A stretch of 62,643 nt of DNA, filler included, from Deltaproteobacteria bacterium (GTDB lineage: Bacteria > JAUYMQ01): assembly GCA_030698575.1 (NCBI GenBank). It is 11 parts of 11 records of this genome, joined end to end, with 100 filler letters (N's around TTAATTAATTAA, not from the genome) between each part and the next. Parts side by side here need not be neighbours in the genome. Positions count along the whole stretch, not along the records: positions 56,968 to 59,982 come from JAUYMQ010000522.1; 10 more parts are not named here. One strand, given 5' to 3'. The notes beneath the pieces are model-generated. The model was given only the letters and a program-made list of their open reading frames with translations. It searched no databases and was not told the DNA's origin. Of the stretch, positions 56,968-60,082 are shown one piece after another (the first letter of the stretch is position 1; each line of letters opens with the position of its first letter). The position numbers and the translations under genes are program-made.

Positions 56968-57243
56968 CTGAACGACTCCGGCGTCGAGCGCGATGAGCGA
57001 GTTGGCGATCTTGAAGGTCGAAGCTGGAATCCTCAGAGCGGCCGCGAACTCTGGATGCACCGCCTCGTACCGATTTCTTCGGAGATCGTAGACCAAAACG
57101 GTGCCACTCAAGCCAGTTGAATCGAGTGCGCCAGCCAACGACGGCAAGTTCTCGATCATCGGGTGCGCTTGTTGCGCCTCGACGCCGGTCGCGGCGATTA
57201 GCGGCAGGACGGCAAGAGCGCGAATGGCGAACACGCCGAGCAA
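56968..57243 (-). CDS. blaOXA: Class D (OXA-type) beta-lactamase-like protein, 3'-partial, integron cassette
   Basis: Signal peptide and PASTFKIANSLIAL (STFK active-site motif). Starts about 30 bp after an attC. Confidence 0.85.
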
Positions 57244-57273
57244 CCTATTCCTTCTCGTAATCTTGTGTCGGCG

Positions 57274-57367
57274 GCCTAACGGATCGCGCTTAAGCTGCGG
57301 CGCGCTGAAGAAGAAAGATTCATTTCCTTAATCTACGCGCGCCGTCAGCTTCAAGCGCTGGTTAGGC
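57274..57367 (-). mobile_element. attC site 1 (94 bp)
   Basis: GCCTAAC...GTTAGGC ends, L boxes GCGCTTAAGCTG/CAGCTTCAAGCGC, and extrahelical bases. Confidence 0.93.
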
Positions 57368-57379
57368 AGCGCCACCCGT

Positions 57380-57811
57380 CTACCGACGCTCGTAGAGTTC
57401 CACGATGTCTGGGCCGTCGGCCGGGTGGGGGTACCGCAGCGTGATCCTTGCGCCGACGAGTTCAGCCTGTGGGGTCCACACGTGGTCGCCCTCGCGCAGG
57501 GCGAGCTCCAGGACAGACCCCCGAAGACGGAAGCTCCCGGTGGCCGCGAACTCGCGAACCGTACCCTCGGCGGTCATGCGGTACCGCACGCGGCGTTCCG
57601 CCCGCCCCGCGGCCATCAGTGTGATCGTGCCGCTGACGGGCTCGTACACGCCCGGGAGAGGCACGGGACTGTCGTTGACGGTTCGGAGGGCGTAGGTGCC
57701 GGCCACGCGGCCCGGGCCCACCCCATCAGCGCAGGCACCGGCCCCCGCAGCGACGGCGAGGGCGCCAGCGATCAGGTGAAAGTGGCTCATGGTACGCATA
57801 GAATACCCCAT
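57380..57811 (-). CDS. Hypothetical lipoprotein-like cassette gene
   Basis: Fills the space between two attC sites. AGAC lipobox-like motif and 'AGTYALRTVN'. Confidence 0.8.
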   Translation of the reverse strand: MGYSMRTMSHFHLIAGALAVAAGAGACADGVGPGRVAGTYALRTVNDSPVPLPGVYEPVSGTITLMAAGRAERRVRYRMTAEGTVREFAATGSFRLRGSVLELALREGDHVWTPQAELVGARITLRYPHPADGPDIVELYERR

Positions 57812-57839
57812 CTTGAGGACTCAAGTCACTTCTGGCGCT

Positions 57840-57929
57840 GCCTAACGGATCGCGCTTAAGCTGCGGCGCGCTGAAGAAAGATTCATTCCCCAATCTACGC
57901 GCGCCGCCAGCTTCAAGCGCTTGTTAGGC
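57840..57929 (-). mobile_element. attC site 2 (90 bp)
   Basis: Near-identical to attC 1. Confidence 0.93.
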
Positions 57930-58232
57930 GGATGCGGCGCCACCACCACCGAACAGACCCTGGGACCGAGCCTTAAGCCGCGACAAGAAGTCCGGATTAT
58001 CGACGCCGCCAGGGAGTTCCGCGGCGACCTCTTCAACCACGCGCTTCATTTTCTGGAAGAGTGCTTGTCCTTCCGGACTCCTCGCCCTACGCTCCCCGTC
58101 GGCCAATGCCCACTCCACAAAATCCTGGCCCGTGAGCCCAGGAGGCAAAGGGGAGCCCCCCTCGCGCAGGGCAGCCTCCAACTCGGCACCCTTCTGACGA
58201 ACCAGGGCTTCGAGCTCAGGATCGCGTTCCAT
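57924..58232 (-). CDS. Hypothetical 102-aa cassette gene
   Basis: The TAA stop lies inside the R'' box, which is typical of cassettes. ATG is about 10 bp after the attC core. Confidence 0.8.
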   Translation of the reverse strand: MERDPELEALVRQKGAELEAALREGGSPLPPGLTGQDFVEWALADGERRARSPEGQALFQKMKRVVEEVAAELPGGVDNPDFLSRLKARSQGLFGGGGAASA

Positions 58233-58378
58233 GCCGCATTCCGCCTAACGGATCGCGCTTAGTTGGTATGAAGCGGTAGCTGGACCTCCACGGTCTCGTG
58301 GTGGCAAGCTGAGCCCCACACGCTTGTTCACGCGCTCACCGTCTTGCGACGGGGCGCACACCGGGAGGCCAGCTACCA

Positions 58379-59401
58379 ATGGATACGATAGGGCTCGATC
58401 TGCACAAACGCGAGAGTCAGCTGTGCGTGCTGACGGAGGCAGGGGAGATCGTGGAGCGCCGGATCGTCACCAGTCGCGAGCGGTTCACGGTGGTGCTCGG
58501 GGGCCGGCCCCCGGCGCGCATCCTGCTCGAGGCGTCGACCGAGAGCGAGTGGGTGGCCCGGCACCTGGAGACCCTCGGGCACGAGGTGATCATCGCGGAT
58601 CCCAACTTCGCGCCGATGTACGCCACGCGCCGCCGTGGGGTCAAGACGGACCGGCGCGACGCGCGCACGCTGGCCGAGGCCTGCCGGCTCGGGGCGTATC
58701 GGCGCGCCCATCGGGCGTCGGACGAGCAGCGGCATGTCCGCGCCGAGCTCGCGGTGCGGGACGCGCTGATCCGCACCCGCACGCGCACCGTCGCCCTGGC
58801 CAAAGCGCTGATCCGGCGCGACGGGCTGCGGCTGCCGAGCGGGGGGCCGGCCCACACGGAGGCCAAGCTGACGGCGCTGCCGTTGCCCCCCGCGCTGGCC
58901 GCCGAGCTCGCGCCGTTGCGGGCGCTGTGGGCGCCGGTGAACACCCAGATCGCCGCGGCCGACGCGCGGCTGGCGCACGTCGCCGCCGCCGATCCGGTGG
59001 TGGCGCAGCTGATGACGACGCCGGGCATCGGCCCGGTGACGGCCGTCGCGTTTGTGGCCACGCTAGACGTCGTGACGCGGTTCGCCAGCGCGCACCAGGT
59101 CGAGGCCTACCTCGGCCTGACGCCCCGCGAGTACAGCTCGGGCGAGCAGCAGCGGCGCGGGCGGATCAGCAAGACCGGGAATGCCCGCATGCGGTACCTG
59201 CTGGTCGAGGCAGCCTGGCGCGTGCTCCGCACCAAGGACCCGGCGGCCGCCGCGCTGCGGGCGTGGGCGGAAGGAATCGCGCAGCGCCGTGGGCGCTCGA
59301 TCGCGGCCGTCGCGCTCGCCCGGCGGTTGGCCGGCATCCTCTACGCGATGTGGCGCGACGGGAAGGACTACCGCGCGCCGCCGTCGGCCGCGGTGGCGTA
59401 G
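58379..59401 (+). CDS. IS110 family DEDD recombinase/transposase
   Basis: GLDLHK, LEAS, KTDRRDA, PGIG, EYSSG (catalytic Ser region) and ALARRLA. Confidence 0.95.
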   Translation: MDTIGLDLHKRESQLCVLTEAGEIVERRIVTSRERFTVVLGGRPPARILLEASTESEWVARHLETLGHEVIIADPNFAPMYATRRRGVKTDRRDARTLAEACRLGAYRRAHRASDEQRHVRAELAVRDALIRTRTRTVALAKALIRRDGLRLPSGGPAHTEAKLTALPLPPALAAELAPLRALWAPVNTQIAAADARLAHVAAADPVVAQLMTTPGIGPVTAVAFVATLDVVTRFASAHQVEAYLGLTPREYSSGEQQRRGRISKTGNARMRYLLVEAAWRVLRTKDPAAAALRAWAEGIAQRRGRSIAAVALARRLAGILYAMWRDGKDYRAPPSAAVA

Positions 59402-59676
59402 ACGTCAGCCCGCGTGCCCCAAGAGTGTGACCGACAAGAGCGGTGAGCGCGTCGCAGCTTATGACCGCCGCTGAGGTCGTCGCCTAGTGGGCGCCACCGC
59501 TCGTTCGGATCCCCCTTTGCGCCGACGAGCACCGCTCGTCACCCGAGAGCGCGTACAGAAGGCTGAGCGGCACCTCGAGGGCACCGGCTGCAGCGGGCCG
59601 CCCGCGGCCCGACAACAGAAGGACAGCAAAAACCCGACCGCGAGGCCGGGCTTGACGGGGTACGCCGCTTCACAGA
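59402..59676 (+). ncRNA. Candidate bridge RNA/seekRNA in the IS right end
   Basis: Stem-internal loop-stem at 59438-59502 carries CGCAGCTTA (attC target match). ACAGAAG (circle-junction match) occurs at 59555 and 59615. Confidence 0.72.
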
Positions 59677-59763
59677 AAGCTGCGGCGCGAACGTGAAGTG
59701 TTCACAAATAGAAGACTACAGCAGAAAGACGGCGCCGTCAGCTTCAGGCGCTTGTTAGGCAGC

Positions 59764-59982
59764 GCGGATTCATATAGTAAGTGCAACACGGTTTCTCAAA
59801 GAGAAAGGTGACCTGGCGGACGGTAGTCTTCAGTCTCCACCAAGAGAAGGAAGGCTGCCATGACGTACCGCCAGATCACCTTTGCGGAAAGATACACCCT
59901 GGGCCTGCTCCGCCAGAGCGGCCTCTCCCCCGCCGCCATCGCTCGCACGCTCGGCCGCCACCGCAGCACGATCAGTCGCGAG
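59764..59982 (+). mobile_element. IS30-family element, left end, partial
   Basis: AAGTGCAACA-containing end, followed by an HTH transposase ORF. Exact boundary is approximate. Confidence 0.75.
59860..59982 (+). CDS. IS30 family transposase N-terminus
   Basis: MTYRQITFAERYTL...IARTLGRHRSTISRE (HTH_38-like). Not in the ORF track. Confidence 0.85.
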
Positions 59983-60082
59983 NNNNNNNNNNNNNNNNNN
60001 NNNNNNNNNNNNNNNNNNNNNNNNNNTTAATTAATTAANNNNNNNNNNNNNNNNNNNNNNNNNNNNNNNNNNNNNNNNNNNN

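What the first reader, a model, noticed from the sequence alone, without database searches (positions are those of the whole stretch)
58243..59760. IS1111-type element inserted precisely inside an attC, with no target duplication
Seen: removing 58261-59676 restores GCCTAACGGATCGCGCTTAAGCTGCGGCGCG, identical to the starts of attC 1 and 2. The subterminal IRs lie 7 and 3 nt from the ends. The transposase is opposite in orientation to the cassettes, and the insertion is in the L' box relative to cassette direction. A TTGACG -35-like hexamer lies inside the right end (59652-59657). Established: an IS1111-attC group is known from proteobacterial integrons. Inference: insertion inactivates this attC, and precise excision could restore it. 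This may be an independent attC-targeting lineage.
Basis: partly seen in the sequence, partly recalled or inferred. Interest (0 to 1): 0.75.

Follow-up and report, generated by a model that had tools for sequence, protein, structure and literature searches.

The report
RNA-guided insertion sequence splitting an attC
A 1.4-kb mobile element of the IS1111 family sits precisely inside a gene-cassette recombination site (attC) of an integron. It carries its own guide RNA whose sequence matches that site, and about twenty relatives in related soil bacteria do the same.

Summary
Window 58261-59676 is an intact 1416-bp IS1111-family element. It has a 340-aa DEDD/Ser transposase and 9-bp subterminal inverted repeats 7 and 3 nt from the ends. 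It makes no target duplication. Removing it rebuilds an attC whose first 31 nt equal two neighbouring attCs.

The 275-nt region downstream of tnp encodes a two-module seekRNA/bridge RNA:
- Module 1 (59438-59502) holds a 9-nt guide complementary to the right flank (9/9). It also holds a 5-6-nt copy of the left flank fused to a copy of the IS left end.
- Module 2 carries a copy of the circle junction.
- These guides covary with flanks and ends across 53-63 relatives.

All 23 relatives with at least 65% transposase identity lie in attC sites. Nearly all are Gemmatimonadota MAGs. Twenty-one sit at the same L' position and two are retargeted to the attC loop. More distant relatives use unrelated targets.

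The transposase is at most 38% identical to any plasmid-borne relative. Its insertion point, at the 3'/L' end, differs from what is described for the classical IS1111-attC group (5' end).

Verdict: a real, probably independent attC-targeting lineage working by a known mechanism. Direct phylogeny against ISPst6/ISKpn4/ISPa21 could not be run.

The parts
58243..58260 (+). Left piece of the interrupted attC: R-box GCCTAAC (58243-58249), 5-nt spacer, first half of the L' arm (GCGCTT)
   Evidence: (family D3)
58261..59676 (+). IS1111-family insertion sequence, 1416 bp, single copy in the window
   Evidence: blastn of the IS against the window: only itself
58261..58276 (+). Left end: 7-nt extension AGTTGGT (58261-58267) plus subterminal inverted repeat ATGAAGCGG (58268-58276)
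58379..59401 (+). Transposase/recombinase gene, 340 aa. DEDD residues D7, E51, D91, D94 and S253/S254 are conserved
   Evidence: PF01548, PF02371; NF033542, 252 bits, cut-off 140; ISCro4 9t56, IS621 8wt6
59438..59502 (+). seekRNA/bridge-RNA module 1 (target-binding): an outer stem, an internal loop that holds the guides, and an inner hairpin
   Evidence: 98% of cells paired; 30 compensatory cells against 8.1 in shuffles; z -3.43
59453..59461 (+). T guide CGCAGCTTA, complementary 9/9 to the top strand T|AAGCTGCG of the target
59480..59491 (+). B guide TCGCCT (4 of 6 identical to left flank GCGCTT) fused to AGTGGG (5 of 6 identical to the IS left end AGTTGG)
59545..59561 (+). Module 2 (donor-binding): anchor GAGAGCGCGT, then ACAGAAG. 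ACAGAAG equals the last 5 nt of the right end plus the first 2 nt of the left end (the circle junction). A second ACAGAAG lies at 59615-59621
59652..59657 (+). Conserved -35-like TTGACG in the right end. With a 17-nt spacer the -10 would be GA|AGTT, formed only across the circle junction
   Evidence: one search found no complete sigma-70 promoter in the linear form
59665..59676 (+). Right end: inverted repeat CCGCTTCAC (59665-59673) plus 3-nt extension AGA
59677..59760 (+). Right piece of the interrupted attC: rest of L', the variable region, the L'' arm with bulged bases, and R-box GTTAGGC
   Evidence: (family D2)
57840..57929 (+). Intact attC (90 nt) carrying the same, unoccupied target
57274..57367 (+). 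Intact attC (94 nt) carrying the same, unoccupied target
57924..58232 (-). Cassette ORF, 102 aa, no family match. Its stop codon lies in the R box of the next attC
57380..57811 (-). Cassette ORF, 143 aa, no family match

Best explanation
This is an intact IS1111-family insertion sequence, an RNA-guided DEDD/Ser recombinase element, that has integrated by site-specific recombination into the L' arm of an integron attC site.

Guide RNA (inferred from sequence and covariation)
- The 275-nt non-coding region downstream of tnp is transcribed into a seekRNA/bridge RNA with two modules.
- Module 1 exposes two guides in one internal loop. A 9-nt guide pairs with the top strand just right of the insertion point. 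A 5-6-nt guide pairs with the bottom strand just left of it, and runs straight on into a 6-nt copy of the element's own left end.
- Module 2 carries a 7-nt copy of the right-end/left-end junction of the excised circle.

Reaction (inferred by analogy)
- The recombinase-RNA complex brings the circle junction and the sequence GCGCTT|AAGCTGCG together and exchanges strands without duplicating any base.
- Excision is the reverse reaction and would restore the attC.
- In the circle, a conserved -35 in the right end meets a -10 formed across the junction and drives tnp.

Why only one arm is hit
- The target sequence exists only in the attC arm that lacks the bulged base. The element therefore always lands in the same arm and the same orientation, antisense to the cassettes.
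- It lands only in attCs of the right sequence.

Lineage
- The element belongs to a clade, so far almost confined to Gemmatimonadota MAGs, that acquired attC targeting separately from the gammaproteobacterial IS1111-attC group.

Shown versus inferred
- Shown: the anatomy, guide-target and guide-end covariation, target survey, RNA structure covariation and catalytic residues.
- Inferred: that the RNA is made and bound, the chemistry, promoter use, loss of attC function, and independence from the classical group.
For: Family
- Pfam DEDD_Tnp_IS110 (1.4e-14) and Transposase_20 (7.9e-27).
- NCBIfam 'IS110 family RNA-guided transposase', 252 bits against a cut-off of 140.
- PDB matches to the ISCro4 and IS621 recombinases.
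- D7, E51, D91, D94, S253 and S254 are conserved in at least 97% of 61 aligned sequences.
- The 7/3-nt extensions and a long 3' NCR match the IS1111 definition given in PMC11187229 (passages).

Precise insertion
-.

T guide
- It lies at a fixed place after the anchor GAGCGCG.
- It matches the element's own right flank at mean 7.2 of 9 in 53 elements; 33 of 53 score at least 8.
- Against other elements' targets the mean is 4.3 of 9 in 2638 pairings.
- It changes with the target: AAGCTGCGG, AAACTGCTT, ATGCTGCAA, AGGAAGTCC, TGTGAACAT and others.

B guide and ends
- The B guide plus left-end copy follows 26-31 nt later. The left-end copy tracks AGTTGG, AATTGG, AGATGG, AAATGG and GAATGG.
- The junction copy in module 2 tracks the ends: CACAGA gives ACAGAAG in 21 elements, CATAGA gives ATAGAAG in 10, CATACA gives ATACAAG in 2, and CATAAA gives ATAAAAG in 1.

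RNA structure
- 12 consensus pairs, 6 with compensatory changes. 98% of cells are paired, against 40-73% when the partners are slid.

Target survey
- All 23 loci with at least 65% identity are in attC sites. Twenty-one are at the L' position and 2 in the loop.
- Cassette ORFs are antisense to tnp in 21 of 25 intervals.
- Within arrays, 9 of 12 occupied sites carry A[AT]GCTGC, against 8 of 32 unoccupied attC-like sites (Fisher p 0.0045).

Lineage
- All attC-inserted elements fall in one 18-row clade inside a 57-row clade whose other members have other targets.
- The best plasmid match is 38.1% identical. Identity is 29.7% to IS5708 and 27.4-27.6% to IS5075/IS4321.

-35
- It is conserved at a fixed distance from the end.
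Against: - No expression or binding data exist. Rfam 15 gave no match in 57000-60000 at E up to 1.
- In the window copy the B guide has a mismatch to its own site (CGCCT against CGCTT). The left-end copy also has one (AGTGGG against AGTTGG), whereas the nearest relatives are perfect. This copy may therefore be less active.
- 20 of 53 elements score 7 of 9 or less for the T guide. Some of these have doubtful ends.
- The junction -10 of this copy (GAAGTT) matches only 2 of 6 consensus positions. The promoter scan found nothing in the linear element.
- The tree is the quick IQ-TREE run, because the careful search did not finish. The attC clade has SH-aLRT 88, below the 95 mark. It omits elements without defined ends or with an ORF under 300 aa, such as L001, L006, L007, L010, L018 and L022.
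- Independence from ISPst6/ISPa21/ISKpn4/ISPa25 rests on indirect evidence only.
- Two perfect targets 0.4 and 1 kb away are unoccupied.
Confidence: 0.85

Rival explanations
1. The element is simply a diverged member, by descent, of the classical IS1111-attC group (ISPst6, ISPa21, ISKpn4, ISUnCu1) or of the ISPa25 line. On this view attC targeting was inherited, not acquired anew.
For: It has the same family, the same kind of target and the same antisense orientation (PMC3001079 passage). I could not place the classical members in a tree. ISPa25 shows that transposases only 46% identical can share one attC target (PMC11187229, section read).
Against: - The nearest relatives outside the attC clade (54-64% identical) use unrelated targets.
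- No plasmid-borne relative exceeds 38.1% identity.
- The motif TPREYSSGE of this protein occurs in none of the ISfinder IS110-family proteins listed in the source data of PMC11187229.
- The insertion point is in L' at the 3' end, whereas the classical group is reported near the 5' end.
- The ISKpn4 non-coding region printed in that paper's Supplementary Table 1 ends differently from this element and contains neither CGCAGCTTA nor the anchor GAGCGCG. I compared these by eye.
Confidence: 0.07
2. Target choice is made by the protein recognising the folded attC hairpin or its bulged bases, as the integron integrase does. The matches in the non-coding region would be by-products of the palindromic, G+C-rich sequence.
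For: All targets are structured sites. The insertion point lies exactly opposite the first bulged base of the hairpin. The guide and the target are both partly palindromic (GCTTAAGC).
Against: - The guide changes in step with the flank in relatives whose targets are not attC at all.
- In arrays of attCs, 9 of 12 occupied sites carry the matching sequence against 8 of 32 unoccupied ones.
- L014/L015 have a different guide and sit in a different part of an attC.
- seekRNA dependence was shown experimentally for ISKpn4, ISPst6, ISEc11 and ISPa11 (PMC11187229, abstract and sections 9-10).
Confidence: 0.04
3. The junctions are an assembly artefact: a chimeric 3-kb contig that joins an IS to attC repeats.
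For: The piece is short (56968-59982) and comes from a set of contigs joined by linkers. Repeats such as attC and IS elements often misassemble. No reads are available.
Against: The same two junction types recur in 21 independently assembled loci from other MAGs, with different cassettes around them. Both flanks fit one attC whose arms pair with each other.
Confidence: 0.02

Closest known systems
IS1111-attC group (ISPst6, ISPa21, ISKpn4, ISUnCu1; Tetu & Holmes 2008, Post & Hall 2009). Neither paper was read: the first is not held and I did not ask for the second. Both are known here through PMC3001079, PMC11187229 and PMC11616780.
   Same: - IS1111 family, with insertion into attC sites of cassette arrays.
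- One fixed position and orientation, with the transposase antisense to the cassettes.
- No duplication.
- A seekRNA encoded downstream of tnp, with a top-strand match 5' of a bottom-strand match (PMC11187229, section 9).
   Different: - The classical group is reported near the 5' end of attC (PMC3001079 discussion). This clade is in the L' arm, 9-11 nt from the R box at the 3' end.
- The hosts are Gemmatimonadota MAGs, not Pseudomonas or Enterobacterales.
- The subterminal repeats and the guides differ. I compared the ISKpn4 NCR by eye.
- Transposase identity was not computed directly. No plasmid relative exceeds 38.1%.
ISPa25
   Same: It is a second, diverged IS1111 line (46% identical to ISKpn4) that also targets attC (PMC11187229, section 9).
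   Different: ISPa25 uses the same site and the same guide stretches as ISKpn4. The present clade uses another site and other guides.
ISEc11 / ISXne4 natural redirection
   Same: These are close relatives that keep the RNA stem but carry different guide sequences and different targets (PMC11187229, section 10). L014/L015 against the rest of the attC clade is the same kind of case.
   Different: Here the redirection stays within attC sites, moving from the L' arm to the variable loop. It is accompanied by a change in the left end (AGTTGG to AATTGG) that the RNA copies.
IS621 / ISCro4 bridge recombinases (PDB 8wt6, 9t56)
   Same: A DEDD plus Ser recombinase and a two-loop RNA that reads target and donor (PMC11208160, passages). 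The C-terminal domain matches at E 5.6e-14 and 1.7e-17.
   Different: - Those belong to the IS110 group, with the RNA in the left end and very short subterminal repeats.
- Here the RNA is in the right end, the repeats are 9 bp, and the left-flank guide is fused to a copy of the left end.
Group IIC-attC introns
   Same: Another mobile element class that homes into attC sites in the antisense direction (PMC3001079).
   Different: They work by retrohoming of a ribozyme-reverse transcriptase element, not by a recombinase with a guide RNA.

Membership tests
IS1111 family (within IS110) | DEDD (RuvC-like) N-terminal domain and Transposase_20 C-terminal domain with a conserved Ser | tested here: met
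   D7, E51, D91, D94 and S253/S254 are conserved in at least 97% of 61 sequences
IS1111 family (within IS110) | Subterminal inverted repeats, with a 7-nt (or 6-nt) extension on the left and 3 nt on the right | tested here: met
   9-bp repeat with 7 and 3 nt extensions. The same layout occurs in 63 elements (62 loci and the window). The repeat is shorter than the 'usually 11-13 bp' of PMC11187229 but within the 7-17 bp range of PMC11208160
IS1111 family (within IS110) | No target duplication and a specific target | tested here: met
IS1111 family (within IS110) | Longer non-coding region downstream of tnp that encodes a seekRNA with matches to both target strands, top-strand match first | tested here: met
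   3' NCR is 275 nt against 118 nt at the 5' end. Guides and covariation. Expression was not tested
IS1111 family (within IS110) | Circular intermediate with a promoter assembled at the junction | tested here: inconclusive
   The -35 is conserved at a fixed distance in 52 of 63 elements, but the -10 of this copy is weak. The circle itself cannot be tested with these tools
IS1111-attC group sensu Tetu & Holmes | Inserted in attC sites of gene cassettes, antisense to the cassettes | tested here: met
IS1111-attC group sensu Tetu & Holmes | Insertion near the 5' end of the attC (PMC3001079 discussion) | tested here: not met
   The insertion is in the L' arm, 11 nt from the R box at the 3' end in cassette orientation. 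Strand assignment rests on the ORF direction and on the arm that bears the bulged bases
IS1111-attC group sensu Tetu & Holmes | Transposase inside the monophyletic ISPst6/ISPa21 subgroup | not tested
   I obtained no stored sequence of that subgroup (tries). Indirect evidence: at most 38.1% identity to plasmid relatives, and neighbours in the tree have other targets
Integron attC site (the target) | Inverse core sites RYYYAAC ... GTTRRRY that bound an imperfect palindrome with bulged bases on one arm | tested here: met
   Three copies, 90-102 nt long, dG -25 to -30 kcal/mol as DNA
Integron attC site (the target) | Array of short ORFs, each followed by an attC, next to an integron integrase gene | tested here: inconclusive
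   The array and co-oriented ORFs are present. No integrase lies on the 3-kb piece, which ends at 56968 and 59982. The other pieces of the window were not screened

The most novel reading that the evidence does not exclude
This is a third, independently evolved attC-targeting lineage of RNA-guided IS1111 elements. It is native to the chromosomal integrons of Gemmatimonadota.

- It reads the bulge-free L' arm of attC with a 9-nt guide plus a 5-6-nt guide pair.
- It has been naturally reprogrammed at least once to another part of attC, the loop, in L014/L015.
- Its target loop fuses the left-flank guide to a copy of the element's own left end. One RNA strand therefore spells the future left junction.

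If so, integron arrays are a recurrent landing pad for bridge-RNA elements in more than one phylum. The clade would offer about twenty natural guide/target/end triplets for working out IS1111 guide rules.
Probability: 0.6. Interest if true: 0.55.

Novelty: new variant of a known kind. Interest (0 to 1): 0.5.

Why it matters
- attC-targeting IS1111 elements were known from clinical and Pseudomonas integrons, where they freeze cassette arrays.
- A separate lineage in environmental Gemmatimonadota integrons, at a different position in the site, would show convergent use of attC as a landing pad by guide-RNA elements.
- It would also show that integron arrays outside Proteobacteria are shaped by such elements.
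- The relatives give a natural series in which guide, target and element ends change together. Such a series is useful for deducing the pairing rules of the less studied IS1111-type bridge RNAs.
- In this array, the insertion probably blocks recombination at one attC. It also separates the downstream cassettes, including a class D beta-lactamase-like one, from whatever lies upstream.

Tried and rejected
- Rfam scan of 57000-60000 at E up to 1: no match. This says only that no curated family fits.
- Patterns for attC with gaps of 30-60 and 45-75 nt found nothing, because the sites are longer. A script later found them.
- A naive longest-inverted-repeat search for IS ends picked spurious repeats in many loci. 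I replaced it with a motif-anchored search.
- My first anchoring of the guides used a wrong register and the wrong one of two anchors. I corrected this.
- I tried to fetch a classical IS1111-attC element as stored DNA:
  - Six plasmid hits of the window transposase were inspected; none lies in an integron.
  - A second plasmid search used the IS5708 transposase, and two of its hits were inspected; these are another IS.
  - Two accession numbers recalled for one plasmid are not in the collections.
  - Three E. coli chromosomes said to carry ISUnCu1 (bioRxiv 10.1101/2022.09.12.507718) are held, but I had no way to find the place in 5-Mb records.
  - The supplement of PMC11616780 gives no accession numbers.
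No identity to ISKpn4 was therefore computed.
- The sigma-70 promoter and terminator scan of 58200-59800 found nothing.
No reads were available, so circle junctions and empty sites in the source sample stayed unchecked.
Full report
**What is there.** The window is a chain of 11 contig pieces joined by runs of N with a TTAATTAATTAA linker. The finding lies on a 3015-bp piece, 56968-59982.

Read on the minus strand, this piece is a cassette array:
- An attC interrupted by the element (59760 down to 58243).
- A 102-aa ORF (58232-57924).
- An attC (57929-57840).
- A 143-aa ORF (57811-57380).
- An attC (57367-57274).
- The first 92 codons of a class D beta-lactamase-like gene, cut by the contig end.

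The two intact attCs share their first 31 nt exactly. The flanks of the element, once joined, give the same 31 nt. All three sites fold as DNA into the classical attC form: a 7-bp R box, an asymmetric spacer, an L box, and two bulged bases on one arm.

The bulged bases lie on the 3' arm of the + strand, and the ORFs are on the minus strand. The + strand is therefore the bottom strand, and the element sits in L', 11 nt from the R box at the 3' end of the site in cassette direction.

**The element.** It spans 58261-59676 and is 1416 bp long.
- Left end: AGTTGGT followed by ATGAAGCGG.
- Right end: CCGCTTCAC followed by AGA.
- These are subterminal repeats 7 and 3 nt from the tips, the hallmark of IS1111 elements according to PMC11187229 (passages read).
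- Nothing is duplicated. The boundary can be shifted by one A.
- The 340-aa protein has both IS110-family domains.
- It passes the NCBIfam model 'IS110 family RNA-guided transposase' (252 bits against a cut-off of 140).
- It matches the solved ISCro4 and IS621 recombinases.
- It keeps D7, E51, D91, D94 and S253/S254, which are conserved in at least 97% of 61 aligned relatives and references.
- The window holds only this one copy.

**Relatives and their targets.** A scan of one genome per species found 180 stretches encoding relatives, and the best 80 (79 loci) were kept. Motif-anchored end-finding gave both ends for 63 elements, namely 62 loci and the window. All have the same 7/3 layout.

Every one of the 23 loci with at least 65% protein identity (L001-L019, L022, L030, L037, L062) lies in an attC-type site. 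All are labelled Gemmatimonadota, apart from L001 (titled only 'bacterium') and L009 (a 'Chloroflexi' bin).

Twenty-one of these loci have the left flank [C/T]TAAC-like box, then 9-11 nt, then the IS. Of these 21 plus the window, 18 elements were examined with the IS removed:
- 9 show both inverse boxes under a strict pattern.
- 3 more have a right box together with a left box that is degenerate by one base or cut by the contig end (L010, L037, L030).
- 3 are cut by the contig end on the right (L004, L009, L013).
- L017 and L019 lack a strict right box.
- L003 has lost its right end together with most of the attC.

L006, L007, L018 and L022 were read separately. They show the same left junction, and L006 also shows the right one.

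L014 and L015 carry identical transposases and lie 6.3 kb apart on one contig. They sit in the variable loop of another attC type.

The loci are true arrays, with several attC-like sites each. The longest ORF between sites is antisense to tnp in 21 of 25 intervals; 3 further intervals had no ORF of 50 aa.

Relatives at 54-64% identity come from Rokubacteria, Acidobacteriota, Myxococcota and others. They have quite different flanks, such as GAGCGT|AGGCAACATAA.

**The guide RNA.** The region downstream of tnp is 275 nt long, against 118 nt upstream. An alignment of this region across the family shows a conserved scaffold with variable inserts.

The scaffold runs as follows:
- The anchor GAGCGCG and one further base.
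- A 9-nt variable stretch.
- A short hairpin.
- About 27 nt after the start of the 9-nt stretch, a 5-6-nt variable stretch followed by a 6-nt stretch.
- The closing strand of a stem.

The consensus fold has an outer stem, an internal loop that carries both variable stretches, and an inner hairpin. It has 12 pairs, 6 of them with compensatory changes.
- 98% of cells are paired, against 93.4% in shuffles and 40-73% when the partners are slid.
- 30 cells carry double changes, against 8.1 in shuffles.
- The window's copy (59436-59504) folds with a z-score of -3.43.

The 9-nt stretch is complementary to the top strand at the right of the insertion point:
- In the window CGCAGCTTA pairs with T|AAGCTGCG, 9 of 9.
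- Over 53 elements with enough flank, the match to the element's own target averages 7.2 of 9, and 33 of 53 score at least 8.
- Against other elements' targets the mean is 4.3 of 9 over 2638 pairings. Each score is the best of five registers.
- Four elements had no recognisable anchor, and six had flanks too short.

The second stretch repeats the last 5-6 nt of the left flank:
- CGCTT occurs with CGCTT in L001, L002, L004 and L009.
- CGCCT occurs with CGCCT in L062.
- CGCAT occurs with CGCAT in L010.
- WIN, L005, L008 and L012 each have one mismatch.

The 6 nt after it repeat the element's own left end and change with it: AGTTGG, AATTGG, AGATGG, AAATGG, GAATGG.

About 100 nt further on, a second anchor is followed by a 7-mer equal to the last 5 nt of the right end plus the first 2 nt of the left end. 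That is the circle junction. It also changes with the ends: 21, 10, 2 and 1 cases for four right-end types, plus the AA and GA left-end variants.

This is the layout of a seekRNA/bridge RNA. It has a target loop with a top-strand match 5' of a bottom-strand match, as described for ISEc11, ISPa11 and ISKpn4 (PMC11187229, section 9). It also has a donor module, as proposed for IS1111 elements (PMC11208160, passage). Reading the fused flank/left-end guide as a 'handshake' of the kind described for IS621 is my own recollection, not a call.

**Sequence, not shape, decides.** After removing the IS from 18 loci, 44 attC-like sites were found.
- 9 of the 12 occupied sites carry A[AT]GCTGC at the right place.
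- 8 of the 32 unoccupied sites carry it (Fisher p 0.0045).
- Leaving out L030, whose flank is cut, and the loop-type L015 gives p 0.0004.
- Neighbouring attCs of the same architecture but with CATCACCTGC or CTCAGCTGC at this place are empty.
- The target exists only on the arm without the bulged base, which explains the fixed arm and orientation.

**Promoter.** TTGAC lies in the last 45 nt of 54 of 63 elements, and in 52 the hexamer ends 19-20 nt from the tip.

With a 17-nt spacer, the -10 would be the last two bases of the right end plus the first four of the left end. It would exist only in the circle, as shown for ISEc11 (figure legend in PMC11187229). In relatives it reads GAAGAT, GAGAAT or GAAAAT. 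In the window it reads GAAGTT, which is weak. No full promoter was found in the linear element.

**Lineage.** In a quick IQ-TREE run of 63 rows, the careful search did not finish. Elements without defined ends or with an ORF under 300 aa were left out.
- All attC-inserted elements form one 18-row clade (SH-aLRT 88). It consists of 14 rows labelled L', 2 loop rows, and L002 and L003, which my pattern had mislabelled.
- This clade lies inside a 57-row clade (SH-aLRT 100) whose other members have other targets.
- Six Enterobacterales plasmid references lie far outside.

Against 72,556 plasmids the best match is 38.1% identical, in a Rhizobium plasmid. All of the 5000 best records are below 60%. 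Identity is 29.7% to IS5708 and 27.4-27.6% to IS5075/IS4321.

None of the ISfinder IS110-family proteins in the source data of PMC11187229 contains this protein's TPREYSSGE motif. Searches of the paper library for IS1111-attC, seekRNA with IS1111, bridge RNA with attC, and integron with Gemmatimonadota, attC and IS110 turned up no description of such a clade. Subscription papers are not covered.

The classical group is reported to insert 'near the 5'-end' of attC and antisense (PMC3001079, discussion passage). The ISKpn4 non-coding region printed ends differently from this element and contains neither CGCAGCTTA nor the anchor GAGCGCG, by eye. My reading that its guide stretches correspond to the R''-L'' end of class-1-type attCs is from recall. 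The two founding papers (Tetu & Holmes 2008; Post & Hall 2009) were not read. I could not obtain a stored sequence of any classical member, so a direct tree and a percent identity are missing.

**Consequences (inferred).**
- The insertion puts 1.4 kb between the R'/half-L' piece and the rest of the site. The bottom-strand hairpin that the integrase needs therefore cannot form, and recombination at this attC should be blocked until the element excises.
- Excision without a footprint would restore the site.
- The cassettes downstream in the array lie beyond a 1.4-kb antisense insert. These are the two ORFs of unknown function and the beta-lactamase-like gene.
- Two perfect unoccupied targets lie within 1 kb.
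- This copy has one mismatch in each of its left-flank and left-end guides, so it may be less active than its relatives.

**Verdict.** The thing itself is a member of a known family working by a known mechanism. What is new is the lineage, the host phylum, the position within attC, and a natural series of guide/target/end changes.

Noticed in passing
window 56968-57243 (-): N-terminal 92 codons of a class D (OXA-type) beta-lactamase-like gene, lying as a cassette after the attC at 57274-57367 and cut by the contig end. The best NCBIfam matches are the OXA-1206 and OXA-60 families at E 3.6e-13 and 2.6e-11. The score is far below the cut-offs because the gene is only partly present.
   Followed up: partly
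window 59860-59982 (+): Start of a second transposase-like ORF with an HTH_38 domain (E 1.1e-13), the type found in IS30-family transposases. It begins 99 nt beyond the R-box end of the interrupted attC and runs into the contig end. Another IS may abut the same attC on its other side.
   Followed up: partly
window, whole: The window is 11 contig pieces (2.6-21.3 kb, G+C 60-71%) joined by N runs around a TTAATTAATTAA linker. Features on different pieces need not be neighbours in the genome.
   Followed up: yes
L014 2384-3814 and L015 2384-3814 (same contig, 6.3 kb apart): Two copies with identical transposases lie in the variable loop of two attCs, not in L'. Their 9-nt guide (AAGCAGTTT), left-flank guide (CAACC) and left end (AATTGG) have all changed together. 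This is a natural retargeting within attC sites.
   Followed up: partly
window 59480-59491 and the same place in 49 relatives (alignment A1, columns 51-62): The left-flank guide is directly followed by a copy of the element's own first 6 nt. This RNA stretch therefore equals the left junction of the inserted element.
   Followed up: partly
window 59615-59621: A second copy of the junction 7-mer ACAGAAG lies 60 nt after the first. It is present in only some close relatives (WIN, L001, L002, L021).
   Followed up: no
L003 552-1963: An 84% identical relative has a normal left junction in an attC but lacks its right end. The sequence runs straight into the last bases of the attC (CTGGTTAGGC). This looks like a deletion that removed the right end and most of the site.
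   Followed up: no
L038 2501-3493 and 4827-5819: Two copies of a 59% identical relative lie in tandem 2.3 kb apart on a Sandaracinaceae contig, with a non-attC target.
   Followed up: no
L009: One attC-inserted copy (82% identity) lies on a 6-kb contig of a bin labelled Chloroflexi, while nearly all other clade members are labelled Gemmatimonadota. This could be transfer or mis-binning.
   Followed up: no
window 57274-57304, 57840-57870: Two intact attCs carry the exact 31-nt target region of the element but are unoccupied.
   Followed up: yes
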